Positions 45,355 through 64,000 of a stretch of DNA of 64,000 nt are shown one piece after another. The notes under the pieces were generated by a model, which saw nothing but the letters and a program-made list of their open reading frames with translations, made no database searches and was not told the origin of the DNA. The DNA lies in IMG/VR virus record IMGVR_UViG_3300018878_000133, positions 1-64,000 of that record; one strand, written 5' to 3'. Origin of the DNA: a virus (taxonomy: Duplodnaviria; Heunggongvirae; Uroviricota; Caudoviricetes). How positions within the stretch are numbered: position 1 is the stretch's first letter; each line of letters begins with the position of its first letter. Position numbers and translations under genes: made by a program.

Positions 45355-47352
45355 ATGCAAATTAACGAAACTTTGAAGTCTATTTTAAGAACTCGTCATT
45401 ATTTAGTTATTGATGATAGTGATTTGGCTACAAATAATTCAGCTTATTTAAACGCATATTTGTTAGCTAATTTCGGTATTATTGTAGATAAGCCTAGTTT
45501 TCTTACTAAGACTATGGTTAATCAGATTGACGAGGAATTTCATTTGAATGTTCCTAAGTCTTTTTATGAGAATCCTCAGGATACTAAATATTTTACTTGT
45601 GAAGAGCTTTTGATTGAGCAGATTGTTTCTTATTTTGCATATGGCTCGGACCTTGGTAGAATTGAAATTTTTAAGAAAGATCTTCCTGAATATGTTGTAG
45701 GTGATGAGCTTAAACTTAGAACCTTCTATATTATAAATAATGAAGAAGCTCGTAAAACTCTATACGATATTACGGATGCTTATTGTGCTTACACTCGTCC
45801 GTTTTCGTGTGATGAATTAGCTGAATTTCTTACTTTGTTTACTAATGGTTTTTATGATGGGTCAGAGGAAATTAAGTGTAAAGACAATGTTTTTGCGCTC
45901 CTTCCTACAGATAAAAGATTTGCTAGATTCTTAGATAAAAAAGATATTGTAAAGCTTTCTGTTCAAAGATTTGGAGATAAAGCACAATTCAAGAATTGCA
46001 AAAAGAATCCTTATGCTTGGAAAGAATTACAGATGCATTTCAGTGAAATTGCTTCTTATATTCCTTATGTAAAACATTGTCCTATGTCTAAGAAACAGGC
46101 AAAGTATTTTAATAAAATCGTTTCTCTTGGCAACCTAAAATTACCCAAAGAAACTAATGTGCAGTCCCCTGATAGAGCGGCTCTTAAAATGCTTTCCGAT
46201 GGTGATATTGTTGCTGCGGCTGATATTTATGCTTCTAATGGTTCTATGTTAGAACGTCGCATTAAGATGCTTCTTTCAAGAGCAAATCCTCAGGAAGCTG
46301 TTGAAATTCTTAATATGATTCCTGCATCTAATCCTGTAGTTCTTTATCAGCTTCTTGCAACTCTTTCAGCAGATGATACTGAAGCAAGAACCTTTACTTA
46401 CTTCCATAATAATAAAGTAAAAACTCACAAGGAAACTGACTATGAAGCTAAATGGCGAAAGTCTAGACTTAACGAAAATACACGTAAGTTCCTTGCTTCT
46501 GTTTGTCTTGATAAGATTAAAGAATATTACAAGTCTTTGCCTTCTCTTGGTAAGATTTATGTAGCTGATAATTTCTATAAGTTAGGTATGCCTACTAATA
46601 CTTCTGCTAGCGGTAAGGGTATTGATGTACTTCCTATTGGAAGCCGTATACCTTGTACTGGAAATAATATTAGAACTTTTGTACATTGGAAGAAAGCTTT
46701 TGATATTGATTCTTCTCTTATCGTTGTAGATAAAGATGATAATTTGTCTACTATGGGCTGGTTCAATTATGGTGCAAAATCTTTTGGAAATGATATCCTG
46801 TTCTCCGGTGATATTACTGGTCCTAATGGTGCAGAGTACTTTGATATTAACCTCGACTCTCTTGCCAAAAAAGGTTATAAGTATGTAGTTCAGACTTTCC
46901 ATGGTTACTGCAGTGAACTTAACAGTGGTGAGATTTATGCTGGTTACCAGAATAAAGAAAATCTTAATACTAAAGCTTGGGATCCTAAGAACATTGAGAT
47001 GCAGTTTAAGGTTTATGGTGATTCTCGTGCTTGCGTAGCTTTTGCTATTGACATTCAGAATCGAGAAGTAGTCATTCTTAATCAGATTCTTGACAGTGAT
47101 GATAGAGTAATTAGACCTGAAGGTTTTAAGACTATCGAAAAATACTTACAGGCTAATTATCTTGACGTTAATATTGGTATGATTGCCGAGTGTCGTGGCG
47201 AGCTTGCGGATAATCCTATGGATGCAAACGTTGTATTTGATGATACTTATGCTCCAGTCATTTCTGAAGACTCTGATGATATCGACCCTGTAAAGCAGAC
47301 CATTATCAGAAGTTATGAATTAGAAAAATTAGTAGCTTTTGTTAATAATTAA
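45355..47352 (+). CDS. hypothetical 665-aa protein
   Basis: Long ORF with RBS AAGGAG; no family recognised by eye. First gene after the AT-rich region and immediately upstream of the tRNA island. Confidence 0.5.
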   Translation: MQINETLKSILRTRHYLVIDDSDLATNNSAYLNAYLLANFGIIVDKPSFLTKTMVNQIDEEFHLNVPKSFYENPQDTKYFTCEELLIEQIVSYFAYGSDLGRIEIFKKDLPEYVVGDELKLRTFYIINNEEARKTLYDITDAYCAYTRPFSCDELAEFLTLFTNGFYDGSEEIKCKDNVFALLPTDKRFARFLDKKDIVKLSVQRFGDKAQFKNCKKNPYAWKELQMHFSEIASYIPYVKHCPMSKKQAKYFNKIVSLGNLKLPKETNVQSPDRAALKMLSDGDIVAAADIYASNGSMLERRIKMLLSRANPQEAVEILNMIPASNPVVLYQLLATLSADDTEARTFTYFHNNKVKTHKETDYEAKWRKSRLNENTRKFLASVCLDKIKEYYKSLPSLGKIYVADNFYKLGMPTNTSASGKGIDVLPIGSRIPCTGNNIRTFVHWKKAFDIDSSLIVVDKDDNLSTMGWFNYGAKSFGNDILFSGDITGPNGAEYFDINLDSLAKKGYKYVVQTFHGYCSELNSGEIYAGYQNKENLNTKAWDPKNIEMQFKVYGDSRACVAFAIDIQNREVVILNQILDSDDRVIRPEGFKTIEKYLQANYLDVNIGMIAECRGELADNPMDANVVFDDTYAPVISEDSDDIDPVKQTIIRSYELEKLVAFVNN

Positions 47353-47377: not shown

Positions 47378-47399
47378 GAGACTATGCTTATTTCTTAAC
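47378..47399 (+). repeat. repeat family copy 3 (TAGAGACTATGCTTATTTCTTA)
   Basis: Same core motif, directly upstream of the permuted tRNA-like element. Confidence 0.5.
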
Positions 47400-47408
47400 G
47401 CCTTTTAA

Positions 47409-47480
47409 GCGGGTGGTCGTTGGTTCGAATCCAACCATTTCATCTGTTAGGTGAAATGTAGCTCAGCGGTAGAGCACCTT
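47409..47480 (+). ncRNA. permuted tRNA-like element (T-arm + 3' acceptor strand joined by a 5-nt loop to 5' acceptor strand + D-arm)
   Basis: 'GTTGG-TTCGAAT-CCAAC CATTTCATC tgtta GGTGAAATG TAGC-TCAGCGGTA-GAGC'. GGTGAAA pairs with TTTCATC (one G-U) across a closing loop; no anticodon arm. Confidence 0.4.
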
Positions 47481-47569
47481 TTAGCTAGTCCAAATATTTT
47501 TAATAATTTATTAAATTATTAATTTAATAAGTGCTAAATTTATAAAGAACACATTGTATAATAAAATAC

Positions 47570-48230
47570 GTTAGGTGCCACGAAGCGTTGGTTTAGGCTG
47601 TGATTTAAGGTCAACGCCTAACTCTAGCGAAGAAGCAGCAGTGGTAAATGGAGTGTGATGAACAGCCTTAAATTGGTTTGTAAGTGTTGAAAACCTTTCA
47701 ATGAGATAAGTAATGCTTATGAGATTGATAAAAAACTTAAAAAAATAAATTCGGTTGAACTCCGATATGTCTATGAGGATGCACTGTGGAATAGATGATT
47801 AGTTGGATGCTCCGTAAGGGTCATTACAAGGTCATTTCCTCATAGATGAACCGCCCGCAGGCCATTAACTAGCATAGGCCGTTCCGTTTTATTATTGGCG
47901 GATGATTAAGGACAGTAGGGACAACTTCGCCTGCCGAGAGAATGAAGCTCGCTCAGGTAAAAGCCATAAGCTATCTGGTAACAGAACGTGGAATTAATGA
48001 TGAGAGATAAGTTGTCAGATAATCAGTGGGAAAGATTATCATTTATTCCGTAGTGAGTATAAAGCCATATTAGAATACGCTACAACGTACAACTTTGGAA
48101 ACGGACGCCTGTACAGCGTGACCCAAAGGTAGCAGAGTTTAGGCATAATAGTTTAATGGTAGAACACGGCCGAGTGTTGGGCTGGGTGGCGGTTCAATTC
48201 CGAATGTTGCCGACCAAAAAGAAAAACTCT
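47570..48230 (+). ncRNA. ORF-free GC-elevated structured segment (candidate large ncRNA/intron-like element)
   Basis: ~660 nt with no ORF >=60 aa in any frame. TGTATAAT promoter at 47565; long-range inverted repeats (GCGTTG...CAACGC; TCTATGAGGA...TCCTCATAGA); contains a tRNA-like 5' half (GGCATAATAGTTTAATGGTAGAAC) near its end. Confidence 0.35.
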
Positions 48231-48437
48231 TAAAAGTATTTAGATATGAAAAAGCAAGGTAAACGAATTAGATGCTGGTCACAAGAGTTAATGATAGAAG
48301 AAAGACCGTTGGAAGTGGTTGCAAACGCGAAGCCAACCCTTGCTCCTAAAGGTGAGAGTCCTTTAGCGGAAAAAATATTTTTAAAATTTTTTTAAAACAC
48401 TATAAATTTTAAGTAATTAGATTGTATAATATAACGC

Positions 48438-48458
48438 ATAGAGCCAATGCTTATTTCT
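48438..48458 (+). repeat. repeat family copy 4 (TAGAGCCAATGCTTATTTCT)
   Basis: Preceded by TTGTATAAT (48422-48430) and followed by TTGGCCTTTAT. Confidence 0.5.
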
Positions 48459-48505
48459 GCTGAATAGCGATCATCTTTTAAATGAATTTAGCTTGGCCTT
48501 TATAT

Positions 48506-48644
48506 GCGGGATTGGCGGAATAGGCAGACGCAAGGGACTTGCTTGATGACATAGTGTCTATCTAGTAGGGGCAGTACCTACATCAAGTACCAAAAATCCC
48601 TCGGTAGTGATACCGTATCGGTTCAAGTCCGATATCCCGCACCA
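48506..48644 (+). tRNA. tRNA-Leu-like gene with ~52-nt insertion in the anticodon loop
   Basis: Acceptor GCGGGAT/ATCCCGC + ACCA; Leu-type D-arm TGGCGGAATAGGCAGACGC; long variable hairpin CGGTAGTGATACCG; T-arm ATCGG-TTCAAGT-CCGAT. Anticodon stem AGGGA/TCCCT encloses 59 nt, including a 7-bp hairpin CTTGATG...CATCAAG. Confidence 0.5.
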
Positions 48645-48727
48645 GACCTTTATGTTTTTCAGTTTCTGTTGAATGGGTTAAATAGAAACGACCGTTTTGC
48701 TAGTTTTAAGTGCATAAACTAGTTTAT

Positions 48728-48804
48728 GGACCATTAGCTCAGTTGGTTAGAGCTCCCGGCTCATAACCGGTCGGTCCTAGGTTCGAGTCCTAGATGGTCC
48801 ACCA
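48728..48804 (+). tRNA. tRNA-Met (anticodon CAT)
   Basis: GGACCAT-TA-GCTC-AGTTGGTTA-GAGC...CTCATAA...CTAGG-TTCGAGT-CCTAG-ATGGTCC-A-CCA; clean cloverleaf. Confidence 0.85.
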
Positions 48805-48809
48805 TATAT

Positions 48810-48897
48810 ACGCCATTAGCTCAGCGGTGAGGGCACTGGTCTTATACACCACGGTAATCTTCGGGATTGCGAGGTTCGACTCCTCGATGGCGTACCA
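48810..48897 (+). tRNA. type-II (long variable arm) tRNA with apparent TAT anticodon
   Basis: Acceptor ACGCCAT/ATGGCGT, D-arm GCTC-AGCGGTGA-GGGC, anticodon arm CTGGT-CTTATAC-ACCAC, 17-nt variable hairpin with TTCG loop, T-arm CGAGG-TTCGACT-CCTCG, ACCA. Confidence 0.55.
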
Positions 48898-48965
48898 AAG
48901 AGTGAGAATTTAGAGGTAACGATGTAGCACACTCTTCTATGAAAAAAGCAACCTTCGTTACATAT

Positions 48966-49117
48966 GGCGCGTTGGTCAAGCGGTTAAGACACCGCCCTTT
49001 CGTTAGATTAGCCAAAAGGTAAGGCAGGCCACTAGAGATAGAGGTTATGTGTCAGTTCGAGTCTGACATCTAGCACCAACGGCGGTATCACGGGTTCGAT
49101 TCCCGTACGCGTCACCA
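48966..49117 (+). tRNA. tRNA-Glu-like gene (anticodon-loop CTTTC..AC) interrupted by a 77-nt tRNA-shaped insertion
   Basis: Outer gene GGCGCGT-TG-GTCAAGCGGTTAAGAC-A-CCGCC-[..]-GGCGG-TATCA-CGGGT-TCGATTC-CCGTA-CGCGTCA-CCA. Insert 49012-49088 has its own acceptor GTTAGAT/ATCTAGC, D-arm GCC-AAAAGGTAA-GGC, T-arm GTCAG-TTCGAGT-CTGAC and terminal ACCA. Confidence 0.5.
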
Positions 49118-49270
49118 CAGGGGTTATAATTAGTGGATAAGGTTCCCCAGCAGAAAAATGCCCATTCCATAGGATAGTAACCTTAATTTATAGAAGTAGT
49201 TTATTCATATGGTCACAGTGCCGCGGGCAAGGTTTAAATGAAAATATAAATTAAAATAACTTTTATTTAT

Positions 49271-49347
49271 TGGGCAGTAGCCAAGTCGGTAAGGCAACGG
49301 ACTTTGACTCCGTCATTTCGCTGGTTCGAGTCCAGCCTGCCCAGCCA
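49271..49347 (+). tRNA. tRNA-Gln (anticodon TTG)
   Basis: TGGGCAG-TA-GCC-AAGTCGGTAA-GGC-A-ACGGA-CTTTGAC-TCCGT...GCTGG-TTCGAGT-CCAGC-CTGCCCA-G-CCA. Confidence 0.8.
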
Positions 49348-49354
49348 AAATTGT

Positions 49355-49444
49355 GGAGGAGTACTCAAGCTGGTCGAAGAGGACGCACTGCTAACGCGTT
49401 AGGCCCGAAAGGGTGCGGGAGTTCGAATCTCCCCTCCTCCGCCA
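49355..49444 (+). tRNA. tRNA-Ser (anticodon GCT)
   Basis: GGAGGAG...CTGCTAA loop, long variable arm TAGGCCCGAAAGGGTG, T-arm GGGAG-TTCGAAT-CTCCC, CTCCTCC-G-CCA. Confidence 0.8.
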
Positions 49445-49467
49445 AATTATTTATTTAGAGGTACTTT

Positions 49468-49638
49468 ATGAAGGTAAAGTTACAGTGCCCAGAATGTAAT
49501 CACGAATGGGAATCTAATTATTGGAAATGGATCTTGAAAGCTCCTTTTCATGAATTTGTGTTTTTCCGAATGAAAGACTATAGAAGAACAAAATGTCCTA
49601 AATGTGGTAAAAAGTCTTGGATAGCACGAACTAGATAA
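49468..49638 (+). CDS. small zinc-ribbon protein (56 aa)
   Basis: MKVKLQCPECNHEWESNYWKWILKAPFHEFVFFRMKDYRRTKCPKCGKKSWIARTR; RBS AGAGGT 6 nt upstream. Below the 60-aa cutoff of the ORF track. Confidence 0.45.
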   Translation: MKVKLQCPECNHEWESNYWKWILKAPFHEFVFFRMKDYRRTKCPKCGKKSWIARTR

Positions 49639-49640
49639 TA

Positions 49641-49715
49641 TCTGCGTAATAGTTTAACTGGTAAAACACCTGACCTAATCTGTTGGGAGACACGGTTCGA
49701 GTCCGTAAGCGTAGT
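49641..49715 (+). ncRNA. tRNA-like element with good D- and T-arms but unpaired acceptor ends
   Basis: TAGTTTAACTGGTAAAAC D-arm, CTGAC-CTAATCT-GTTGG, ACGG-TTCGAGT-CCGT; 5' TGCGTAA and 3' AGCGTAG do not pair. Confidence 0.35.
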
Positions 49716-49926
49716 GCTATATAGTATTTTAATAAGTTCCCACTGGGTGGACTGGGGCGGGAATATCGTTGGACGTGAGAATCAGCTAATCGTCACCAGG
49801 GAGTAGAGTAGCCGTGCCCCTGTATTGATACTGGTAGTGCTTTATTGATAAAAGATAAACGTATTGTTAAAGGATGCTACACTGGTAATCTGGTGAACAA
49901 TGTAAGTAGTCCACGGTGAATTTTAT

Positions 49927-50000
49927 AGGTCGTTGGTGTAACGGTAGCATGACTGGCTCCAACCCAGTTGGTCAGGGTTCAAATCCTTGGCGGCCTGCCA
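49927..50000 (+). tRNA. tRNA-Trp (anticodon CCA)
   Basis: AGGTCGT/GCGGCCT acceptor (2 G-U), ACTGG-CTCCAAC-CCAGT, CAGGG-TTCAAAT-CCTTG, G-CCA. Confidence 0.75.
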
Positions 50001-50346
50001 TTAATATAATCTTTCTGAGGCGGCAGAGTACACTTAAGAGACGAAGCAATGCCAAAGGGCCCCCGAACTGTGGTGGAAGAAGTAAAGGCTGAAAAAATGA
50101 TCGGTACCACGAGAGATTCCCGCTGACTTGTGTTACAGTGGTGAGACTGAACGCCGACCTTCACAAGAGGTACCTAACGGGTTAGTAAGCAAGAATCGGG
50201 TCCAGGATGAGGAGTGGCTACGCAGACCAACTTAGTAATTTATCATACCATGCACGTCCCCGTATGGAGAGTGCTAAATACATGGTCGTAAGTGAAAATA
50301 GTGTCTAGGCGTAGAGTAAGAAAGCTTATATTATTTTTTAACTATA

Positions 50347-50420
50347 TATGCGGAGATAGTTTAATTGGATAGAACGCCGGCCTTTTGGTCGGAAGTATAG
50401 GTTCAAATCCTACAACCGTA
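50347..50420 (+). ncRNA. tRNA-like element with 6-nt 'anticodon' loop and unpaired acceptor
   Basis: GCGGAGA-TA-GTTT-AATTGGATA-GAAC-G-CCGGC-CTTTTG-GTCGG...ATAGG-TTCAAAT-CCTAC-AACCGTA; 5'/3' ends not complementary. Confidence 0.35.
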
Positions 50421-50736
50421 ACATAAGGACATCCTTCCTGATATTTAAAAATCACACAAATGGATCGAAGCTTAACGTAATCGGAGCGTACGGTGTTAGT
50501 CACACAAATCTTAAACGTATGACTGGTTTCTATGAAGGGTAAAGAGATAAAGGTTTCCCTTAATCTGGACCGACCAGAGTAGATGTGATACTACATAAAC
50601 AAAAGCCTAACCTGATTTGATTTATGTCAGTCAAGGGGTCGACTCAACTGCAGAACGAGTTACTCATAAATCTTTTTCTTTATAAAATAAATTCTTAAAT
50701 AAATTCTTGATGCTCTGCTGCGACATAAAGATGTTT

Positions 50737-50760
50737 TGTACTGTATAATATTAGTACAGT
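50737..50760 (+). promoter_or_regulatory. extended -10 promoter (TGTATAAT) embedded in a palindrome
   Basis: GTACTG-TATAATAT-TAGTACAG: inverted repeat flanking the -10 element, ~45 nt upstream of the 50803 ATG. Confidence 0.5.
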
Positions 50761-50802
50761 CAATAAAATTCTAATATCTTTATGTATCGAAGGGAGTAAA
50801 TA

Positions 50803-51567
50803 ATGAGTATTATTTTTAAGATGCTGAAGTATCTGAAAAACTACAGTAATCTTATAAAAACGTGCACAATTATTGCACTTGTGATTATAGTAGCTATACA
50901 AGCTATTAGTTTTACTAGTCACAGATCTTCATATAAAGAAGAAGTATCGGTATTACAAACAGAACTTGATTCTTTAAGAAAACAAAATGAAGAGTTAGAA
51001 ACAAAAGTGTCTGAGCAAGAAGAGACACTTGTTGAGAATGAGAAAGTCCTTCTTGACAAGGACGCACAAATCCAAGAGCTTAAAAAAGAATTACAGGAAA
51101 CTAAGAAGGTCGTTTCACAACAGAAGCAGATAGTTTCAAATTCTTTTAAGGCTGATGGTAATTATAACCAGGCTACTAAGGTATGGAAATCATTAAAAGC
51201 TTTAGGTCTTAATGATTACGTGTGTGCAGGTATCATGGGTAATATTATGGCAGAAGTTGGTGGTCAAACGCTTGATATTTCAAGATGGCCTCAGTATAGT
51301 CAAAAAACTTATTATGGTATTTGTCAGTGGGCTGGCAGTAGGAAACAAAGACTTCTAAATGATTTTGGCACAACACTTGAAGACCAGATAAGGTTTTTAT
51401 CTGTTGAATTGTTTGAAGTAATTCCGAAAGGCAATTCTTTCTATAATATGCAAGATGAAAAAGAAGCAGCATTGTATTTTGCAAAATATTATGAGAGATG
51501 TGGGTCTGGATCTTATGGCGTGAGACAACAAAATGCTACAAAAGCATTACAGTATTTCGTGAAGTAA
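50803..51567 (+). CDS. membrane-anchored coiled-coil protein with phage tail-lysozyme-like domain
   Basis: N-terminal TM helix (CTIIALVIIVAIQAI), Glu/Lys/Leu coiled coil, then 'CAGIMGNIMAEVGGQ...YGICQWAGSRKQ' paralogous to the domain in the 40592 ORF; RBS AAGGGAG. Confidence 0.6.
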   Translation: MSIIFKMLKYLKNYSNLIKTCTIIALVIIVAIQAISFTSHRSSYKEEVSVLQTELDSLRKQNEELETKVSEQEETLVENEKVLLDKDAQIQELKKELQETKKVVSQQKQIVSNSFKADGNYNQATKVWKSLKALGLNDYVCAGIMGNIMAEVGGQTLDISRWPQYSQKTYYGICQWAGSRKQRLLNDFGTTLEDQIRFLSVELFEVIPKGNSFYNMQDEKEAALYFAKYYERCGSGSYGVRQQNATKALQYFVK

Positions 51568-51964
51568 GAAAAAGACAGATATGTTTAACAAGTATTAAAA
51601 ATAGTAAAACATATTTAAGAATGAGTGTCAAGCTAAGAATTTAATTTATAAGAATATTATAGCCAGCTATCTATGAGTTGGCTATATTACATAAATTAAT
51701 TTACAGAAAAAATAAGATTTTTATAAAATATTTAAATTTTTTACTGTATAATATTACATGGTAATTTTTACCATTGTTTTGTGAATAGCTTTATTAATCA
51801 TATGCATTCCCCTTTCAATGATACATATGATACAAAGCAACAAAGTCCAAACGGTGAAAGCCCGACAAGACTTGAGAGAAAGAGCTTGGCAATTTTTAAA
51901 ATTCTAATTTAGATTATACGCTAAATTAGATATAGAATAAAAATAATTTAAGGAGATATTAGCT

Positions 51965-52082
51965 ATGAAAAAGTCAGTTAATTTTAATTATAATTCACTA
52001 ATTAAAACAGCTGGCGGAGCTATGCCTAAATTTGATTATTCAAGACCACCAGAGTGGCGTCATTGGTTATTCAGTGAGTAAA
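51965..52082 (+). CDS. small hypothetical protein (38 aa)
   Basis: RBS AAGGAG; terminated by the hairpin at 52101. Confidence 0.3.
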
Positions 52083-52100
52083 AATACTCGATAATCTAGT

Positions 52101-52802: not shown

Positions 52803-52812
52803 AACCTAATAT

Positions 52813-56168: not shown

Positions 56169-56313
56169 GGCTCCGTAGTTCAGATGGTTAGAACGCCTGC
56201 CTGTGCTTTATTAGTTTAATAGTAAAACACTCTTATAAAGAGATGCTAGTGCAAGACTAGTATAAGGCTCCACACGCAGGAGGTCGTCGGTTCGATCCCG
56301 ATCGGAGTCGCCA
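56169..56313 (+). tRNA. tRNA (anticodon-loop remnants CTGTG..AC or CT..CACAC: His/Val-like) interrupted by a 68-nt tRNA-shaped insertion
   Basis: Outer gene GGCTCCG-TA-GTTC-AGATGGTTA-GAAC-G-CCTGC-[75-nt loop]-GCAGG-AGGTC-GTCGG-TTCGATC-CCGAT-CGGAGTC-G-CCA. Insert carries acceptor-like CTTTAT/ATAAGG, D-arm-like GTTT-AATAGTA-AAAC and T-arm-like CTAGT-GCAAG-ACTAG. Confidence 0.5.
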
Positions 56314-58492: not shown

Positions 58493-58579
58493 TTTATTGT
58501 ATGATATTATAGTAAAAGTTTATGATCAAGTAATGATGAATTGGAATATCTTTATCGATTATGTATGGGAGAATTTAAA

Positions 58580-59131
58580 ATGAAAAAACCATTAGTTGTT
58601 AATTTAACAGGAGCTCCAGGTGCTGGAAAAAGCACTGGTGCAGCAACTATTTTTGCAGAGCTTAAAAAAGCTGGTGTTAATGCAGAACTTGTAACAGAAT
58701 TTGCTAAAGATAAGACCTGGGAGCATAATATTATGGCTCTAGGTTGTCAAGAATATGTGTTTGGTAAACAGTCTTATAGATTACGTAGATGCCGAGATGA
58801 TGTCGATGTGATTGTGACTGATAGCCCGCTTCCTCTTAGTATTATTTATAATACTAATCCTGCAATAACTGAGTCTTATCCAAGGTTAGTCATGGATGTT
58901 TATAATACATATGAAAATATTAATTTCTTTATTAACAGAGTTAAACCTTACAACCCTAAAGGCCGAAATCAGACAGAAGAAGAAAGTGATCGTATAAGTG
59001 TCCGCATTAAAGATTTATATAAAGGTCTTGGTATTGATTATTTTGAAATTAACGGCGATAATGAAGGTTATGACTATGCAGTTAAGACTGTATTAAGCAT
59101 ACTAGCAGGAGGTATAAAATATGAGTACTAA
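58580..59131 (+). CDS. P-loop NTPase (NadR/AAA_28-like kinase fold)
   Basis: Walker A 'LTGAPGAGKSTGAA'; Walker-B-like 'VDVIVTDSPL'; RBS GGGAGAA 7 nt upstream of the ATG at 58580. The track ORF begins earlier at 58541. Confidence 0.55.
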   Translation: MKKPLVVNLTGAPGAGKSTGAATIFAELKKAGVNAELVTEFAKDKTWEHNIMALGCQEYVFGKQSYRLRRCRDDVDVIVTDSPLPLSIIYNTNPAITESYPRLVMDVYNTYENINFFINRVKPYNPKGRNQTEEESDRISVRIKDLYKGLGIDYFEINGDNEGYDYAVKTVLSILAGGIKYEY

Positions 59132-59975
59132 AGATGCACTTGGTGATAGAATGAAAGAATTCTATGAAAATAGGAGTAAACATTATCTACCTAGACGAGT
59201 TCCTGTAATCATTAGACTTGACGGCAAAGCTTTCCACACCTTCACTAAAGGTCTTAAGAGGCCTTATGACGAGATTTTCCACAATACTATGAATGCGACT
59301 ATGAAGTATCTCTGTGAGAATATCCAGGGTTGTAAGCTTGGTTATACACAGTCAGACGAAATCACTCTTCTTCTCACAGACTATGACACTCTTGATACCG
59401 ATGCTTGGTTTGGTTATAATGTGCAGAAAATGTGCAGCGTGTCAGCAAGCATGGCAACAATGGTTTTCAATAAGTATCTTAGAGAATTAATTGATAATTA
59501 TTTACAGTCTGATGTATGGGTAAACCATTATTGGGAAGAAGATGTTGAGAAATATGCTAATACATTAAAGAAGGCTATTGACAATGGTGCAATGTTTGAT
59601 TCTCGCTGTTTTAACATTCCTAAAGAAGAAGTTACCAACTGCTTCATCTGGCGTCAGCAGGATGCTACTCGCAACGCAATTCAGATGCTTGGTCAGTGCA
59701 ACTTCTCTCATAAGGAACTACACGGTAAGTCTTGCAATGACATTCAAGATATGTTAATGACTCAGAGAGGTATCAATTTTAATGATATGCCTACTGAGTT
59801 TAAACGTGGTGTCTGCTGTAATCGTGTAGAAAAAGAAGATATTTGTATTGATTTTAAAACAAAAGAAGAGACTCGCTGTATGAGAAGTGAATGGGTAATC
59901 GATAAAGAAATTCCCATTTTTACTCAAGATAGATACTACATTGAACGGTGGGTTTACTCAGAAGGAGATAAATAA
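59121..59975 (+). CDS. Thg1-like protein (tRNA-His guanylyltransferase / 3'-5' nucleotidyltransferase family)
   Basis: 'VPVIIRLDGKAFHTFTKGL..PYDE.F...M' and 'GYTQSDEITLLL' match the Thg1 palm-domain signatures (V.RIDG..FH.F...F.KP.D; GESDEYSF). Confidence 0.7.
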   Translation: MSTKDALGDRMKEFYENRSKHYLPRRVPVIIRLDGKAFHTFTKGLKRPYDEIFHNTMNATMKYLCENIQGCKLGYTQSDEITLLLTDYDTLDTDAWFGYNVQKMCSVSASMATMVFNKYLRELIDNYLQSDVWVNHYWEEDVEKYANTLKKAIDNGAMFDSRCFNIPKEEVTNCFIWRQQDATRNAIQMLGQCNFSHKELHGKSCNDIQDMLMTQRGINFNDMPTEFKRGVCCNRVEKEDICIDFKTKEETRCMRSEWVIDKEIPIFTQDRYYIERWVYSEGDK

Positions 59976-60767
59976 ATGCCTAAGCTTTTTGTTGTTTCTG
60001 ATATTCACAGTTTCTTAGAACCACTTAAAAATGCTTTAGACAGAGCAGGTTTTGACCCTAATAACGAAGAACACTGGCTGATTTCGTGCGGCGATTGCTT
60101 TGATAGGGGTCCTAATAGTATTGAATTGTTGCACTATTTAATGTCGCTTGAGCGAAAGATTCTAGTAAAAGGTAATCATGACCTACTTTTTGACGATCTT
60201 TGCGCAAGATGTTTTCCATATAGCCACGATAAGTCTAATGGCACTGTAAGAACTGTTCAAGACCTCGGTGGAAGTCCTCTTCCGGCGGATTTTGCTAAGT
60301 GCTGTGATACAGCTTTGAATAAAACGGCAGCGTATCGCGACCTACTTGTAAACTATTTTGAAACTGAAAAGTATATTTTTGTTCATAGTTGGATTCCTAC
60401 TATTACTCATTATGATAAAGGTGCTAGTAAGCCTTGGCACCAGGTTGGAAAATACTACGAATACAATGAGAACTGGCGTAATGCTTCCGAGGTAGAGTGG
60501 GAAGAAGCTATGTGGGGTAATCCTTTCTGGAAAGCACAAGACGGTATGAACAAAACCGGTAAGACAATCGTATTCGGACATTGGCATTGTTCTTTAGGTC
60601 ATTTATGCGATAGTCAAGGTGAGCTATCAGAGTTTGGTGATGATGCCAAGTGGGATCCGTACTTTAACGAATCTCAAGGAATCATCGGCATTGATCGCTG
60701 TACTGCACATACTGGTGAAGTTAACGTACTAGTTTTAGATGATAATTTTATTGGAGGCGATAATTAA
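59976..60767 (+). CDS. calcineurin-like metallophosphoesterase
   Basis: 'VVSDIHS', 'CGDCFDRGPNS', 'VKGNHDLLF', 'GHWH' match MPP motifs I-V (DxH, GDxxDRG, GNHD/E, GH). Confidence 0.75.
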   Translation: MPKLFVVSDIHSFLEPLKNALDRAGFDPNNEEHWLISCGDCFDRGPNSIELLHYLMSLERKILVKGNHDLLFDDLCARCFPYSHDKSNGTVRTVQDLGGSPLPADFAKCCDTALNKTAAYRDLLVNYFETEKYIFVHSWIPTITHYDKGASKPWHQVGKYYEYNENWRNASEVEWEEAMWGNPFWKAQDGMNKTGKTIVFGHWHCSLGHLCDSQGELSEFGDDAKWDPYFNESQGIIGIDRCTAHTGEVNVLVLDDNFIGGDN

Positions 60768-62245: not shown

Positions 62246-62410
62246 ATGAAAAAGGAAGCATCTATTGATAGAAGAATGTTTAAAAAATCACCTGAAGAAC
62301 TTGAACTCTACATGTATTTCAAAAAACGTGGCTTCAAGCTTGAGAACAAAAAGGGAAAGGGCTCTTATGAGCGCCGTCCTAAGCATATTTGGAGGTTTTT
62401 AAATGACTGA
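62246..62410 (+). CDS. small basic protein (54 aa), translationally coupled to downstream NTase
   Basis: RBS TTGGAGG 7 nt upstream; stop TGA overlaps the next ATG (ATGACTGA). Confidence 0.4.
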   Translation: MKKEASIDRRMFKKSPEELELYMYFKKRGFKLENKKGKGSYERRPKHIWRFLND

Positions 62411-63197
62411 AAGAGAACTTAAGATTTGTGAAAGACTAAAGCACGATTATAATTATGTGAAAAATCAAGGATATGAAGTTTTTGGCATATTTTTGCAAGG
62501 CTCACAGAATTATCAGTTGGATTATGAAGGCAGTGATATCGATACAAAGTGCATTGTTCTGCCTTCCGCTGAAGACCTTATTTTAAATAAGCAGCCTACA
62601 AGTACTACTCTTATATTAGAAGACAATTCACACATTGATTTAAAAGATATTAGACTTATGTGGCAATGTTTTAAGAAGCAGAACGTAAACTACCTTGAGA
62701 TTTTATTTACTGAGTTCTTTTACGTACCGCGCGACTACTTTTATTTTTGGCTCGAGATGCTTAGAATTAATGAGGATATCGCACACATTGATAATTATGC
62801 TGCTGTAAATTGTATCGTCGGTATGATCTTAGAGAAGAACGCTGCTTTGTGTCATCCTTATCCTACGTTAAAAGACAAGATTGATAAGTATGGATATGAT
62901 AATAAACAGCTTCACCATATTATTAGATGTAGAGAATTTCTTGACAGATACATTGATGGTGTATTATACAAAGATTGTCTAATTCCATACGACCGTGAAT
63001 ACTTAATTAGTGTAAAAGCTAATTATAGATATGATTTAGATCAAGCAAAAGCTATTGCAAAAGAAGCTGTTGACTATGCTAAAGCTAGAAAGCAGGCTTA
63101 TATAGATACTAATGAACGTAAGGTAGCTGAAGATACTTGTAACAGAATGGACTGTATTTTAGTAGATATCCTAACTAAATACTGGACGGAGAATTAA
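62403..63197 (+). CDS. Pol-beta-superfamily nucleotidyltransferase with helical C-terminal domain
   Basis: 'FGIFLQGSQNYQLDYEGSDIDTKCIV' matches the GS-x(9-13)-[DE]h[DE]h NTase active-site signature. Confidence 0.6.
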   Translation: MTERELKICERLKHDYNYVKNQGYEVFGIFLQGSQNYQLDYEGSDIDTKCIVLPSAEDLILNKQPTSTTLILEDNSHIDLKDIRLMWQCFKKQNVNYLEILFTEFFYVPRDYFYFWLEMLRINEDIAHIDNYAAVNCIVGMILEKNAALCHPYPTLKDKIDKYGYDNKQLHHIIRCREFLDRYIDGVLYKDCLIPYDREYLISVKANYRYDLDQAKAIAKEAVDYAKARKQAYIDTNERKVAEDTCNRMDCILVDILTKYWTEN

Positions 63198-63198
63198 T

Positions 63199-63465
63199 AT
63201 GAATTGTTGTGTATGTGGTAGAGCTGGTAGTGATGTTGAAGAACATAAAAATACTTTAACAAATCAAATGGCTCCATATTGTTTAGATTGCTTATGGAGT
63301 GGTCGCGAGCCTTATAAAGATTTAGTTGATTTTGGTTGGGACTTTGGCTGGTTTAATAAAACATATCAGCAAAAAGTGATTATCCCAACGTTAACTTTTA
63401 ATAATAAAACTGTACAGCAATTTAATGAAGAAGTAAGAAAGAAACGAGCTGAAAAATATAATTAA
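63199..63465 (+). CDS. small Cys-containing protein
   Basis: 'MNCCVCGRAGS...CLDCLW' putative metal-binding; 88 aa. Confidence 0.4.
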   Translation: MNCCVCGRAGSDVEEHKNTLTNQMAPYCLDCLWSGREPYKDLVDFGWDFGWFNKTYQQKVIIPTLTFNNKTVQQFNEEVRKKRAEKYN

Positions 63466-63475
63466 GGAGGTACAT

Positions 63476-64000
63476 ATGTCTGTTTTTGTAATGATGGTAG
63501 GTTTACCTGGAAGTGGTAAAAGTACTTTTATTGAACGTAATTATCCTAATTATAGCGTACATAGTAGCGATGCTATTAGAGAAGAACTGTCTGGCGATGT
63601 AAATAACCAAAATATTAATAAGCAGGTGTTTGAACTCCTGCACAAGCGCGTAAAAGAAGACCTTTCTGACGGAAAGAACGTAGTATATGATGCAACTAAT
63701 ATCAGTTGGAAGCGTCGTAAGGCATTTTTACAAGAATTAACTAATATAGATTGTTTTAAGCGATGTATTATTATGGCTACTCCTTTTGAATTATGCGTTC
63801 AAAGAAATCAGGAGCGATCTCGTGTGGTGCCTTACCATGTACTTGAACGTATGTATAAGAGCTTTGATATCCCATGGTACAATGAAGGTTGGAATATGAT
63901 TGAAATTGCTTATGCAAATGCAGAAGCTATGAGCAAATATGGCGATTGGAGCCATTTTGTTACTGACCATTTCGATTTTAATCAGGAAAGTAAATGGCAT
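63476..64000 (+). CDS. polynucleotide-kinase-like P-loop kinase (T4 Pnk kinase-domain-like), 3'-truncated by window
   Basis: RBS AAGGAGG. 'MMVGLPGSGKSTFIE' Walker A; '...SRVVPYHVLERMYKSF' parallels T4 Pnk '...KAVPIDVLRSMYKSM'. No stop before nt 64000. Confidence 0.6.
   Translation, partial: MSVFVMMVGLPGSGKSTFIERNYPNYSVHSSDAIREELSGDVNNQNINKQVFELLHKRVKEDLSDGKNVVYDATNISWKRRKAFLQELTNIDCFKRCIIMATPFELCVQRNQERSRVVPYHVLERMYKSFDIPWYNEGWNMIEIAYANAEAMSKYGDWSHFVTDHFDFNQESKWH

What the first reader, a model, noticed from the sequence alone, without database searches (positions are those of the whole stretch)
48966..49117. tRNA gene whose anticodon loop carries a 77-nt insertion that is itself tRNA-shaped and ends in ACCA
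The outer gene is a near-perfect Glu-type tRNA with acceptor GGCGCGT/ACGCGTCA-CCA, D-arm, anticodon stem CCGCC/GGCGG and T-arm CGGGT/CCCGT. The loop between CCGCC and GGCGG is ~85 nt instead of 7. The inserted segment (49012-49088) has its own acceptor pairing GTTAGAT/ATCTAGC, D-arm GCC-AAAAGGTAA-GGC, T-arm GTCAG-TTCGAGT-CTGAC and a terminal A-CCA. A second gene at 56169-56313 shows the same architecture with a 68-nt insert bearing D-arm-like, T-arm-like and acceptor-like pairings. I am not aware of an established family of tRNA-shaped insertions in tRNA anticodon loops; bacterial tRNA introns are normally >200-nt group I introns.
Basis: seen in the sequence. Interest (0 to 1): 0.8.

Follow-up and report, generated by a model that had tools for sequence, protein, structure and literature searches.

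The report
tRNA-shaped introns in phage tRNAs
Three transfer-RNA genes of this large gut phage are split inside the anticodon by short inserts that mimic the top half of a tRNA and run exactly from a tRNA's first base to its CCA tail, which suggests a way of splicing tRNAs with the cell's ordinary tRNA-trimming enzymes that has been glimpsed before but never explained.

Summary
The insert coordinates were 10 bases off: it lies at 49002-49078. A third interrupted gene was missed.

- **Genes.** tRNA-Leu(UAA) 48506-48644, tRNA-Glu(UUC) 48966-49117 and tRNA-Asp(GUC) 56169-56313 each carry a 52-, 77- or 68-nt insert inside the anticodon loop.
- **Boundaries.** Each insert runs from base 1 of a 7-bp acceptor-like stem to N-CCA. 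Removing exactly that stretch restores the 7-nt loops seen in uninterrupted orthologues of related phages.
- **Wider family.** I found 18 more distinct inserts of this architecture in 19 other phage contigs. They sit in Gln, Leu, Ile, Lys, Glu and suppressor tRNAs, at positions 32/33 to 36/37.
- **Shared structure.** All keep a 12-bp acceptor/T-stem stack, with strong covariation. D and anticodon arms are often lost.
- **Mechanism (inferred, about 0.45).** RNase P cuts at the insert's 5' end and a tRNA 3'-end endonuclease cuts after CCA. An Rnl-type RNA ligase then seals the exons; two insert-bearing relatives and other relatives of this phage encode one.
- **Novelty.** Not unprecedented. Lak megaphage papers noted "enigmatic" tRNA introns that "may encode a tRNA". 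This leaderless, CCA-ended variant and its mechanism are undescribed in the literature I could search.

The parts
48506..48644 (+). Interrupted tRNA-Leu(UAA) gene. Exon 1 is 48506-48540, the insert 48541-48592 and exon 2 48593-48644. The insert sits between anticodon positions 34 and 35.
   Evidence: - ARAGORN intron mode finds it.
- The MFE fold shows an outer cloverleaf plus an inner hairpin domain.
- After removing the insert, ARAGORN in default mode calls tRNA-Leu(taa).
- The spliced sequence is colinear with uninterrupted orthologues, loop CTTAAAA.
48541..48592 (+). 52-nt mini tRNA-like insert: acceptor GCTTGAT/ATCAAGT, a 3-bp D-like hairpin, no anticodon arm, T-arm GTAGG-GGCAGTA-CCTAC abutting the acceptor 3' strand, then A-CCA.
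   Evidence: - Sequence read; fold.
- Inserts with the same T-arm and the same site occur in L293 and L338 Leu genes.
48966..49117 (+). Interrupted tRNA-Glu(UUC) gene. Exon 1 is 48966-49001, the insert 49002-49078 and exon 2 49079-49117. The insert sits between positions 36 and 37.
   Evidence: - Rfam tRNA 49.5 bits; fold.
- The spliced form is called tRNA-Glu(ttc).
- It is 91% identical to the uninterrupted L126 orthologue, with a compensatory G6:C67 versus C6:G67 change.
49002..49078 (+). 77-nt tRNA-like insert: full acceptor, D and T arms, a degenerate anticodon arm (irregular hairpin, GAGA loop), ending in A-CCA.
   Evidence: Rfam tRNA 41.2 bits on the insert alone; fold -20.4 kcal/mol.
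56169..56313 (+). Interrupted tRNA-Asp(GUC) gene. Exon 1 is 56169-56204, the insert 56205-56272 and exon 2 56273-56313. The insert sits between positions 35 and 36.
   Evidence: - Rfam tRNA 50.5 bits; fold.
- The spliced form is called tRNA-Asp(gtc).
- The restored loop CTGTCAC matches the orthologues.
56205..56272 (+). 68-nt tRNA-like insert: acceptor GCTTTAT/ATAAGGC, D-arm TAGTTTAATAGTAAAAC, a shortened anticodon arm (CTCTT-ATA-AAGAG), T-arm GCTAG-TGCAAGA-CTAGT, ending in T-CCA.
   Evidence: - Rfam tRNA 40.5 bits on the insert alone.
- 66% identical to the insert in L338 tRNA-Ile, with a shared D-arm.
58541..60767 (+). RNA-end-repair genes directly after the tRNA cluster: a P-loop kinase-like ORF (58541-59131), a Thg1-like 3'-5' polymerase (59121-59975) and a metallophosphoesterase (59976-60767). 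These are candidate accessory machinery. Any link to the inserts is inferred, not shown.
   Evidence: Pfam AAA_28 4e-13, Thg1 2.4e-31, Metallophos 5.4e-14; PHROG matches to Pnkp-type 'RNA ligase' modules.
62403..64000 (+). RlaP-like Pol-beta nucleotidyltransferase (62403-63197), an 88-aa ORF of unknown function (63199-63465) and the N-terminal part of a polynucleotide kinase + HD protein (63476 onward, cut by the window end). In relative L061 the orthologues of the RlaP-like and kinase-HD genes sit directly after an Rnl-type RNA ligase gene.
   Evidence: - Pfam RlaP E = 0.024 (below the cut-off), AAA_33/KTI12/HD; PHROG polynucleotide kinase.
- 57% identity to L061:5430-6233, next to the PF09414 ligase at L061:4002-5165.

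Best explanation
The three inserts are protein-dependent tRNA introns that imitate the 'top half' of a tRNA.

Each keeps three features:
- a 7-bp acceptor stem stacked on a 5-bp T-stem with a 7-nt loop;
- a discriminator base;
- a CCA tail.

These are what tRNA end-maturation enzymes recognise. They occupy exactly the stretch from tRNA position +1 to position 76.

**Proposed pathway.**
1. The gene is transcribed as one RNA. The outer tRNA and the inner mimic fold as independent domains (predicted folds).
2. RNase P cuts immediately 5' of the mimic's base 1. This leaves a 3'-OH on the 5' exon (inferred).
3. A tRNA 3'-end endonuclease cuts right after the CCA, leaving a 5'-phosphate on the 3' exon. 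Candidates are an RNase Z/BN-type enzyme working in the 'after-CCA' mode, or a phage enzyme (inferred; this is the weakest step).
4. The two exon halves stay paired through the acceptor and anticodon stems. The nick in the anticodon loop is sealed by an ATP-dependent Rnl-type RNA ligase of the kind encoded by related phages (inferred).
5. The result is ordinary tRNA-Leu(UAA), tRNA-Glu(UUC) and tRNA-Asp(GUC).

Recognition rests on the intron, not on the host tRNA, so the intron can sit at any position of the loop. Positions 32/33 to 36/37 are seen.

The inserts descend from tRNAs whose D and anticodon arms decayed. They have spread between tRNA genes and between phages.
For: **Boundaries (shown).**
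- In all three window genes, deleting exactly [base 1 of the inner acceptor stem ... CCA] restores a 7-nt loop identical to that of uninterrupted orthologues: CTTAAAA, CTTTCAC, CTGTCAC.
- ARAGORN in default mode then calls standard tRNAs with the anticodon in register.

**Insert-free orthologues (shown).**
- Syntenic relatives with 70-84% identity in the neighbouring lysozyme-like gene carry uninterrupted genes.
- The Glu exons differ from these by a compensatory acceptor pair.

**Family (shown).**
- 21 distinct inserts, in the window and 19 other contigs, in Asp, Gln, Glu, Ile, Leu, Lys and suppressor tRNAs at positions 32/33, 34/35, 35/36 and 36/37.
- All 21 have a 5-bp T-stem, a 7-nt T-loop and no spacer before the acceptor 3' strand. 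None of these was a search criterion.
- Core length varies from 10 to 42 nt, so only the top half is conserved.

**Covariation (shown).**
- 97.8% of cells paired against 61.1% in shuffles (0 of 500 shuffles reach it).
- 11 of 12 pairs show double changes.
- Slid controls pair at 33-45%.

**CCA specificity (shown).**
- 21 genuine CCA-ended inserts, against 0-2 for six of seven control trinucleotides. CAA gave 13, of which 10 are shifted re-parses of CCA-ended inserts, one is the A-CAA variant and two are tandem-tRNA chimeras.
- 10 of 12 inserts that were not ascertained through a CCA-containing pattern still end in N-CCA.
- The L133 Glu gene encodes no CCA of its own, yet its insert does.

**Spread (shown).**
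- The L290 Lys(36/37) and L324 suppressor(35/36) inserts are 77% identical.
- The window Leu exons are 86% identical to the interrupted L293 gene, against 72-75% to the syntenic uninterrupted genes.

**Ligase (shown in relatives only).**
- A PF09414 RNA ligase lies on the same contigs as the interrupted tRNAs of L364/L061 and L338.
- It is also present in the window phage's nearest IMG/VR relatives by Thg1 identity, L040 (75%), L050 and L056.

**Established knowledge (from memory, not tested here).**
- Acceptor/T-arm minihelices with 3'-RCCA are sufficient RNase P substrates.
- RNase P and RNase Z leave 3'-OH/5'-P ends, which Rnl-type ligases join without end healing.
- Thermotoga RNase Z and E. 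coli RNase BN can cut after CCA.
Against: - No RNA data: nothing shows that spliced tRNAs exist.
- No known general bacterial endonuclease cuts precisely after an encoded CCA. In Bacillus-type RNase Z the CCA is an anti-determinant (from memory), so step 3 has no identified enzyme in a Firmicutes-like host.
- No RNA ligase gene was found in the 73 kb of this phage that I could read. About 150 kb of the genome remained out of reach.
- The repair genes beside the tRNA cluster are a kinase, phosphoesterases and an HD domain. These heal 2',3'-cyclic-phosphate/5'-OH ends, not the ends that RNase P and RNase Z leave.
- Those genes also occur in relatives without inserts, so they are not specific to the inserts.
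- Most family members carry a non-canonical T-loop, GGCAGUA. Its fitness as an RNase P or RNase Z determinant is unknown.
- One variant ends in CAA instead of CCA (L293 Ile).
- Acceptor pairing (at least 6 of 7) and the CCA were search criteria for part of the data set.
Confidence: 0.45

Rival explanations
1. The inserts are true introns, but a dedicated endonuclease removes them. This would be phage-encoded or a host anticodon-nuclease-like enzyme that docks on the tRNA-like domain and leaves 2',3'-cyclic-phosphate and 5'-OH ends. The phage's kinase, phosphoesterase and HD proteins would heal those ends, and an Rnl- or RtcB-type ligase would seal them. This is the logic of archaeal and eukaryal tRNA splicing and of T4 Pnkp/Rnl1 repair.
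For: - A healing toolkit lies directly after the tRNA cluster: AAA_28 kinase-like, metallophosphoesterase, polynucleotide kinase + HD, and an RlaP-like nucleotidyltransferase.
- In L061 the same genes flank an RNA ligase.
- The non-canonical GGCAGUA T-loop conserved in most inserts could be an identity element for a dedicated protein.
- This route needs no 'after-CCA' activity from RNase Z.
Against: - No candidate endonuclease was identified.
- The repair cassette also occurs in relatives whose Leu, Glu and Asp genes are uninterrupted. Thg1-like genes alone are widespread in phages.
- The GGCAGUA loop also occurs in free-standing tRNA-like genes, so it is not intron-specific.
- It does not explain why the boundaries coincide exactly with tRNA positions +1 and 76.
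Confidence: 0.2
2. The composite RNAs are processed but never re-joined. tRNA-end enzymes release the inner tRNA-like RNA, and that RNA and/or the tRNA halves are the functional products, for example decoys for tRNA-targeting defence nucleases or regulators. The host tRNA gene would serve only as a well-expressed, well-folded carrier.
For: - The inner element has everything needed to be released as a stable RNA with mature ends.
- The host tRNAs are mostly U34 or Q34 species (Lys, Glu, Gln, Leu-UAA, Ile-UAU, Asp). From memory, these are classic targets of anticodon nucleases.
- No ligase was seen in the readable part of this genome.
Against: - Exact restoration of a 7-nt loop with the right anticodon in 21 of 21 cases would be unnecessary if the exons were never joined.
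- The exons remain flawless tRNAs with compensatory changes.
- The interrupted genes are the only Glu, Asp and Leu(UAA) genes in the cluster, while relatives keep intact copies.
- The inner sequences evolve fast outside the top half. That argues against a sequence-specific function.
Confidence: 0.15
3. These are inert insertions. Degenerate tRNA copies landed in tRNA genes, for instance as retro-copied products of mis-ligation during anticodon-loop repair, and killed them. The genes are pseudogenes tolerated because the host supplies the tRNAs.
For: - Close relatives lack the inserts, so they are recent and dispensable.
- The inserts begin and end at mature-tRNA ends, as expected if a mature tRNA-like RNA had been ligated into a nicked loop.
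- One variant has lost the CCA.
Against: - The same insert persists at the same site in diverged tRNA-Gln genes (acceptor ACCGCAG versus AGGGGTA), with compensatory changes in both of its helices.
- There is strong covariation across the family.
- The outer genes show no decay (Rfam about 50 bits despite the insertion).
- The phage lineage is abundant, with 24 or more contigs.
Confidence: 0.12
4. The inserts excise themselves as small ribozymes.
For: The inserts are small, structured and conserved in shape. Small self-cleaving ribozymes next to phage tRNAs are known (HDV-like 'theta' ribozymes; from memory).
Against: - No Rfam ribozyme family matches at E <= 1 over 48000-58500, or at E <= 10 on the inserts alone.
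- The only conserved features are generic tRNA top-half features.
- The core between the helices varies from 10 to 42 nt with no conserved sequence.
- Two precise cleavages plus a ligation are beyond any known small ribozyme.
Confidence: 0.03

Closest known systems
'Enigmatic' tRNA introns of Lak megaphages (Devoto et al. 2019, Nat Microbiol, PMC6784885; echoed for alternative-code jumbo phages in PMC13037316)
   Same: - The inserts interrupt the anticodon loop of phage-encoded tRNA genes.
- They contain a tRNA-like element whose acceptor 3' strand abuts the 3' exon.
- They are present or absent between close relatives.
- They have no Rfam intron match.
- By my reading of their Table S6, all four listed introns (Tyr, Phe, Thr, Gly) hold a tRNA-like element, not only Thr.
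   Different: **Lak introns:**
- 79-114 nt long.
- They start with a small hairpin plus an A/U-rich linker of about 27-30 nt before the tRNA-like part.
- They carry no CCA and end 0-1 nt after the discriminator.
- All sit at position 36/37.
- They have canonical GGTTCGAATCC T-arms and lie in CCA-less genes.

**Window type:**
- It has no leader and runs exactly from +1 to CCA.
- It occupies four different loop positions, including inside the anticodon triplet.
- It is often reduced to a 45-56-nt acceptor/T-arm minihelix.
- It mostly carries a GGCAGUA T-loop.

The papers I could read propose no mechanism for either type.
Group I introns in bacterial and phage tRNA anticodon loops
   Same: Both are intervening sequences in the anticodon loop of bacterial-type tRNA genes. 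Both are sporadic among relatives. Homing-endonuclease-like ORFs lie nearby (GIY-YIG at 56705-57385).
   Different: Group I introns are self-splicing ribozymes of more than 200 nt, with a conserved P3-P9 core and a terminal G. These inserts are 45-77 nt, have no Rfam match and end in A (of CCA).
Archaeal and eukaryal tRNA introns (bulge-helix-bulge motif, EndA/Sen endonuclease, RtcB or Trl1 ligase)
   Same: They are short and protein-dependent, lie in or near the anticodon loop, and are excised by two endonucleolytic cuts followed by ligation. Archaeal introns also occur at non-canonical positions.
   Different: There is no bulge-helix-bulge motif: the junctions lie in an asymmetric internal loop (1-5 nt against 6-10 nt) between the anticodon stem and the inner acceptor stem. 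The recognisable determinant is a tRNA top half. The setting is a bacteriophage of bacterial type, and no EndA was seen in the 73 kb read.
tRNA-like processing signals cut by RNase P and RNase Z (MALAT1 mascRNA, mitochondrial tRNA punctuation, plant t-elements, engineered tRNA-gRNA arrays)
   Same: In both cases a tRNA mimic embedded in a longer transcript defines exact cleavage points at its own 5' and 3' ends.
   Different: There the flanking RNAs are simply released. Here the flanks are the two halves of another tRNA and must be re-joined to make sense. That pairing of punctuation with ligation has not been described.
Phage T4 Pnkp/Rnl1 repair of anticodon-loop breaks made by PrrC
   Same: A nicked anticodon loop held together by the tRNA body is the substrate. 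The phage encodes a kinase, a phosphatase and a ligase. The tRNAs affected are the same kinds (Lys, Glu, Gln and similar).
   Different: That is repair of damage, not removal of a genetically encoded insert. A ligase has not yet been found in this phage.

Membership tests
Lak-megaphage-type tRNA introns (Devoto 2019) | The insert lies in the anticodon loop of a phage tRNA gene and contains a tRNA-like element abutting the 3' exon. | tested here: met
   for the window. Table S6 sequences read.
Lak-megaphage-type tRNA introns (Devoto 2019) | A 5' leader (small hairpin plus A/U linker, about 27-30 nt) separates exon 1 from the tRNA-like element. | tested here: not met
   In all three window inserts the acceptor stem starts at the first intron base.
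Lak-megaphage-type tRNA introns (Devoto 2019) | No CCA; the 3' boundary lies 0-1 nt after the discriminator. | tested here: not met
   The window inserts end in A-CCA, A-CCA and T-CCA. The boundary is 3 nt after the discriminator.
Group I intron | A conserved catalytic core (P3-P9), typically more than 200 nt, and a terminal G. | tested here: not met
   The inserts are 52-77 nt, have no Intron_gpI match at E <= 1, and their last base is A.
Bulge-helix-bulge (archaeal/eukaryal) tRNA intron | Both splice sites lie in 3-nt bulges separated by a 4-bp helix. | tested here: not met
   The folds and the sequence place the junctions in internal loops of 3-5 nt on the 5' side and 6-8 nt on the 3' side, with no central 4-bp helix.
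Bulge-helix-bulge (archaeal/eukaryal) tRNA intron | A splicing endonuclease (EndA/Sen) is encoded by the organism. | tested here: inconclusive
   None appeared among the ORFs of the tRNA cluster and its downstream region (window 39.5-64 kb) and on to about 73 kb that were scanned. About 150 kb of the phage genome and the host are unknown.
Genuine decoding tRNA (for the inner elements) | A cloverleaf with a 5-bp anticodon stem and a 7-nt anticodon loop. | tested here: not met
   - The Glu and Asp inserts pass the Rfam tRNA gathering score (41.2 and 40.5 bits).
- Their anticodon arms are an irregular hairpin and a 5-bp stem with a 3-nt loop.
- The Leu insert has no anticodon arm.
- ARAGORN calls none of them.
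RNase P / tRNA 3'-end-enzyme substrate (tRNA top-half mimic) | A 7-bp acceptor stem stacked without a gap on a 5-bp T-stem with a 7-nt loop, then a single-stranded N-CCA. | tested here: met
   21 of 21 distinct inserts; covariation.
RNase P / tRNA 3'-end-enzyme substrate (tRNA top-half mimic) | Actual cleavage at +1 and after position 76. | not testable with these tools
   Needs enzymology or RNA end-mapping.
Small self-cleaving ribozymes (hammerhead, HDV-like/theta, twister, pistol, hatchet) | A match to the family's covariance model. | tested here: not met
   No such Rfam match at E <= 1 in 48000-58500, nor at E <= 10 on the inserts alone.

The most novel reading that the evidence does not exclude
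This would be a third way of splicing tRNAs. The intron is a mimic of a mature tRNA. The housekeeping end-maturation enzymes excise it: RNase P at +1 and an endonuclease after CCA. A phage RNA-repair ligase re-seals the anticodon loop.

The same chemistry run in reverse would make these introns mobile at the RNA level. A mature tRNA-like RNA with a 5'-P and a CCA-3'-OH would be ligated into an anticodon loop nicked by a defence nuclease, and the product would then be copied back into DNA.

This would explain three observations:
- the boundaries are exactly mature tRNA ends;
- the sites vary from 32/33 to 36/37;
- the hosts are the tRNAs that anticodon nucleases typically attack.
Probability: 0.3. 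Interest if true: 0.9.

Novelty: new variant of a known kind. Interest (0 to 1): 0.68.

Why it matters
Bacteria and their phages are thought to have only self-splicing (group I) introns in tRNA genes. Protein-dependent tRNA splicing is treated as an archaeal and eukaryal trait.

- **Testable mechanism.** These elements are short, non-catalytic introns whose only conserved feature is the part of a tRNA that RNase P, RNase Z and the CCA enzyme read, and whose ends are the ends of a mature tRNA. If the proposed route is right, tRNA splicing can be assembled from housekeeping end-processing plus an RNA-repair ligase.
- **Wider questions.** That bears on how tRNA introns and split tRNAs arise. It also gives a routine function to phage RNA-repair ligases beyond counter-defence.
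- **Annotation.** Default tRNA finders miss these genes: ARAGORN missed all three here. Phage tRNA repertoires, codon-usage inferences and suppressor-tRNA calls in gut jumbo phages are therefore undercounted.
- **Open problem.** The Lak-phage 'enigmatic introns' have stood unexplained since 2019. The leaderless CCA-ended variant offers a cleaner test case.

Tried and rejected
- **Exact-pattern scans of IMG/VR** for the Glu and Asp anticodon stems split by 50-85 nt gave only chance hits in coding DNA (loci L001-L033).
- **The Asp pattern in GTDB genomes** returned only tandem or partial tRNA duplications and one chance hit. There is no sign of such inserts in bacterial chromosomes at that site.
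- **Thg1-anchored IMG/VR loci** mostly had no tRNAs within 10 kb. ARAGORN 'intron' calls there were chimeras of adjacent tRNAs.
- **INPHARED.** There is no close relative of the window by DNA, and no match to two interrupted genes of the family from IMG/VR relatives, Gln and Leu(32/33). No cultured phage is known to carry them.
- **Copies of the inserts elsewhere** in the window or in related loci: none found by blastn-short.
- **Ribozyme, group I and BHB readings** were rejected (see the membership tests).
- **An RNA ligase in this phage** was not found in window ORFs or up to about 73 kb.
  - The upstream look-up failed because the protein is not on record.
It failed because the list was saturated by one abundant human-gut phage.
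- **The 665-aa ORF before the Y-RNA-like element** as a Ro/Rsr homologue: no Pfam or PDB sequence hit.
- **RNase P making the 3' cut** on the nicked outer tRNA was considered. I rejected it because the cut lies 2-6 nt upstream of the helix and its position varies.
Full report
**1. The observation**

The window is part of a phage of about 220 kb known only from metagenomes. The source contig is ena:ERZ27248370:k141_4000472, and the phage's proteins occur on 24 or more contigs.

Positions 47.4-58.4 kb form a tRNA cluster on the + strand. ARAGORN in default mode finds 18 tRNAs there and misses the region of the finding.

For 48966-49117:
- Rfam's tRNA model matches it end to end at 49.5 bits, and 56169-56313 at 50.5 bits (gathering score 29).
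- The inner element lies at 49002-49078, ten bases upstream of the stated coordinates.
- The minimum-free-energy folds keep the outer cloverleaf and place the insert as a separate domain on top of the anticodon stem.

Reading upstream, I found a third gene of the same design, tRNA-Leu(UAA) 48506-48644, with a 52-nt insert at 48541-48592.

**2. Boundaries**

Suppose each insert is taken as [first base of its own 7-bp acceptor-like stem ... discriminator-CCA]. What remains of the outer loop is then exactly seven bases:

| Gene | Loop pieces | Restored loop | Anticodon | Insert position |
|---|---|---|---|---|
| Leu | CTT + AAAA | CTTAAAA | UAA | 34/35 |
| Glu | CTTTC + AC | CTTTCAC | UUC | 36/37 |
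| Asp | CTGT + CAC | CTGTCAC | GUC | 35/36 |

This is not just a convenient reading.
- I used homologues of the lysozyme-like ORF inside the cluster to fetch syntenic tRNA clusters. They come from related 219-235-kb phages and from shorter contigs with 70-84% protein identity.
- Wherever those loci cover the genes, Leu(UAA), Glu(UUC) and Asp(GUC) are uninterrupted.
- The in-silico spliced window genes are colinear with them, with the same loops.
- No other placement of the boundaries reproduces those loops.
- After deletion of the inserts, ARAGORN in default mode calls normal tRNA-Leu(taa), Glu(ttc) and Asp(gtc).
- The Glu exons differ from the closest orthologues by a compensatory acceptor pair, G6:C67 versus C6:G67. 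Glu, Asp and Leu(UAA) have no other gene in the cluster.

The outer genes therefore look like maintained tRNA genes, not wrecks.

**3. The inner elements**
- Alone, the Glu and Asp inserts pass Rfam's tRNA threshold, at 41.2 and 40.5 bits. Neither has a usable anticodon arm.
- The Leu insert is only an acceptor stem, a 3-bp hairpin and a T-arm.
- The three are not copies of one another, and none has another copy in the window or in the related loci.

**4. A family beyond the window**
- A metagenome scan for the Glu anticodon stem split by 48-78 nt did not require CCA. It gave one true hit, L133: a different tRNA-Glu gene without an encoded CCA. It carries a 75-nt cloverleaf-like insert at the same 36/37 site, ending in T-CCA.
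- Its T-arm, GTTGG-GGCAGTA-CCAAC, has the same loop as the window's Leu insert.
My estimate of chance hits for the second pattern was about one.
- I wrote a scanner with these criteria: a 7-bp terminal stem (at least 6 of 7 paired), N, CCA, the outer loop restored to 7 nt, and an anticodon stem of at least 4 of 5 pairs. Each hit was then verified by ARAGORN on the spliced sequence, with the anticodon in register.
- It yielded 21 distinct inserts in the window and 19 other contigs:

| tRNA | Insert position | Distinct inserts |
|---|---|---|
| Gln(UUG) | 35/36 | 4 |
| Leu(UAA) | 32/33 | 4 |
| Leu(UAA) | 34/35 | 4 (one in the window) |
| Glu(UUC) | 36/37 | 2 (one in the window) |
| Ile(UAU) | 34/35 and 36/37 | 1 each |
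| Lys(UUU) | 34/35 and 36/37 | 1 each |
| amber-suppressor-type (CUA) | 35/36 | 2 |
| Asp(GUC) | 35/36 | 1 (window) |

- Several contigs carry two to four interrupted tRNAs: L338, L293, L364 and L314.
- One of these contigs, 3300045988_096339 (L364), is the same contig as L061, which was found independently as a Thg1 relative of the window phage. So at least some of these phages belong to the same broad group as the window phage.
- A homologue of that contig's ligase is labelled by NCBI as coming from an Anaerobutyricum hallii MAG. This hints at Clostridia hosts and is not proof.

**5. What is conserved**
- All 21 inserts have a 5-bp T-stem (20 of them perfect), a 7-nt T-loop and no spacer between the T-stem and the acceptor 3' strand. 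Together this is the 12-bp coaxial 'top half' of a tRNA. None of these three features was a criterion of the relaxed scanner.
- The region between the two helices ranges from 10 to 42 nt and has no common sequence.
- On an alignment of the top halves of 19 of them:
  - 97.8% of cells form standard pairs, against 61.1% in shuffles (0 of 500 reach it);
  - 11 of 12 pairs show changes on both sides;
  - structures slid by 1-3 columns pair at 33-45%.
- Caveat: acceptor pairing was a search criterion. T-stem pairing was not.
- CCA specificity:
  - The same scanner verified 24 inserts ending in CCA. Of these, 21 are genuine and 3 are artefacts or alternative parses.
  - It found 0-2 for CCT, ACA, TCA, GCA, CTA and CCC.
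  - Of the 13 hits for CAA, 10 are one-base-shifted re-parses of CCA-ended inserts, one is the genuine A-CAA variant and two are tandem-tRNA chimeras.
- Of 12 inserts not ascertained through a CCA-containing pattern, 10 end in N-CCA. These 12 are the three in the window, L133, and bystander inserts in L293, L303, L314, L338 and L364.
  - The exceptions are an L293 Ile insert ending in A-CAA and an L364 suppressor(UUA) gene with a 69-nt insert that is not tRNA-like.

**6. History and spread**
- Relatives as close as 84% identity in the neighbouring protein lack the inserts.
- The window's Leu exons are 86% identical to the interrupted Leu gene of L293. They are only 72-75% identical to the uninterrupted Leu genes of the syntenic relatives.
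- The Lys(36/37) insert of L290 and the suppressor(35/36) insert of L324 are 77% identical.
- The window's Asp insert shares its D-arm and 66% identity with the Ile insert of L338.
- The 49-nt Gln insert sits at the same site in two clearly different tRNA-Gln genes and shows compensatory changes in both helices.
- The elements are therefore tRNA-derived, persist under structural selection, and have moved between tRNA genes and between phages.
- Free-standing GIY-YIG and HNH ORFs lie in the clusters.

**7. Mechanism**

Shown: the architecture, the exact boundaries, the covariation and the existence of insert-free orthologues.

Inferred: everything about enzymes.

The features kept are exactly those that define substrates of tRNA end-maturation enzymes. 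The boundaries are the two bonds those enzymes make.
- RNase P would cut 5' of base 1 and leave a 3'-OH on exon 1.
- A cut after CCA would leave a 5'-phosphate on exon 2.
- The halves remain base-paired.
- An ATP-dependent Rnl-type ligase can seal such a nick without end healing.

Recognition of the intron rather than the host tRNA explains the four different loop positions.

Evidence on the ligase:
- A PF09414 RNA ligase is encoded on the contigs of L364/L061 and L338, within about 0.4 kb of the stretch that carries L338's four interrupted tRNAs.
- It is also encoded in the window phage's nearest IMG/VR relatives by Thg1 identity: L040 (75%), L050 and L056.
- In L061 it is followed by orthologues of window genes 62403-63197 (RlaP-like, 57% identity) and of the kinase-HD gene.
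- RlaP distribution is reported to mirror that of RNA ligases in jumbo phages (PMC7824862).

Weak points:
- No RNA data exist.
- No ligase has yet been seen in the 73 kb of this phage that I could read.
- No endonuclease is known to cut after an encoded CCA in Firmicutes-type hosts.

The main rival keeps the splicing but replaces RNase P and RNase Z with a dedicated endonuclease. That enzyme would leave cyclic-phosphate/5'-OH ends, which would give a role to the kinase, phosphoesterase and HD genes next to the cluster.

**8. Comparison with what is known**

Literature searches for tRNA-like introns found no described family or mechanism. Two papers record the phenomenon:
- Devoto et al. 2019 on Lak megaphages: 'enigmatic introns', with the tRNA-Thr intron 'itself may encode a tRNA'.

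Their Table S6 shows a related but different design:
- a 5' hairpin and an A/U linker precede the tRNA-like part;
- there is no CCA;
- the 3' boundary lies 0-1 nt after the discriminator;
- the site is always 36/37;
- the genes themselves are CCA-less.

That boundary is where RNase Z cuts CCA-less precursors. This fits the general idea that the 3' junction follows the rules of tRNA 3'-end processing, but the parallel is my inference.

Group I, bulge-helix-bulge and ribozyme memberships fail on defining features (see the membership tests).

**9. Verdict**

The feature is real and is more extensive than reported. It is best described as a new variant of a little-studied kind: leaderless, CCA-terminated tRNA-mimic introns. 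It comes with a concrete, testable splicing model.

Confidence that these are functional introns is about 0.65-0.7. Confidence in the specific RNase P / after-CCA cut / Rnl route is about 0.45.

Noticed in passing
window 57770-58406 (+): A full-length ROOL RNA (Rfam RF03087, 286 bits, gathering score 99) lies directly after the last tRNA and before the RNA-repair genes.
   Followed up: no
window 47391-47510 (+), with ORF 45355-47352: A Y-RNA-like (YrlA) match scores 39 bits, below the gathering score of 69. The sequence reads as a permuted tRNA-like module, with the 3' half (T-arm GTTGG-TTCGAAT-CCAAC) before the 5' half. It directly follows a 665-aa ORF that is conserved in relatives and has no Pfam or PDB sequence match. 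This may be a Ro/Y-RNA-type pair, but that is untested.
   Followed up: partly
window 55322-55368 (+): A DUF3800-XI RNA motif (RF02975) scores 40.1 bits against a gathering score of 37.8.
   Followed up: no
window 52813-52910 (+); L128 3958-4055: - A tRNA-like gene (Rfam 35 bits) has about 34 nt where the anticodon region should have 13.
- It ends in T-CCA and no clear anticodon stem-loop can be drawn.
- It is conserved in a relative, with compensatory changes in the acceptor and T stems.
- It is a different kind of oddity from the tRNA-mimic inserts.
   Followed up: partly
L140-L370 (IMG/VR), e.g. L350 4010-4083, L154, L228: - A T-loop GGCAGUA, usually with a D-loop UAAAAGUA, marks a large class of phage RNAs in more than 100 loci.
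- The class includes free-standing 74-nt tRNA-like genes with normal anticodon loops and 56-102-nt tmRNA-like ends (GGGG...CUCCACCA).
- In the second scan, none of the 112 motif occurrences lies inside an ARAGORN default tRNA call.
- Why these phages replace the canonical T-loop is unexplained.
   Followed up: partly
window 58541-60767 and 62403-64000; L061 4002-7095: An RNA-end-repair gene set lies after the tRNA cluster: kinase-like, Thg1-like, metallophosphoesterase, RlaP-like and polynucleotide kinase + HD. In relative L061 the RlaP-like and kinase-HD genes follow an Rnl-type RNA ligase with an N-terminal OB domain. In the window phage that position holds only small ORFs.
   Followed up: partly
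window 56705-57385 (+); L338 4852-5607 (-): Free-standing homing-endonuclease-like ORFs sit inside the tRNA clusters: a GIY-YIG in the window, about 390 nt after the interrupted Asp gene, and an HNH in L338. They may help interrupted tRNA genes spread, as reported for SegB in the T4 tRNA region (from memory).
   Followed up: no
L364 9919-10063 (-); L364 9794-9912 (-) and L293 12781-12900 (-); L120 9530-9651 and L126 7408-7530: Related phages carry other kinds of interrupted or expanded tRNA-like genes:
- a suppressor(UUA)-type tRNA with a 69-nt insert that is not tRNA-like;
- a tRNA-Asn with about 40 nt inserted between the D-arm and the anticodon stem;
- a conserved 122-nt tRNA-like gene with extra hairpins.
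   Followed up: no
window 50349-50422, 49642-49715 and 48142-48212 (+): Three marginal tRNA calls:
- one with an abnormal anticodon loop (ARAGORN '???', Rfam 32 bits);
- an 'Ile(aat)' at 25 bits, which occupies about the same place in the gene order as an amber-suppressor-type tRNA (cta) in relative L120;
- a weak tRNA at 24.8 bits with a mismatched T-stem.
   Followed up: no
window 47520-48140 and 48215-48505 (+): Within the tRNA cluster there are long stretches without ORFs of 50 aa or more and without any Rfam match. They could hold further structured RNAs. I did not analyse them.
   Followed up: no
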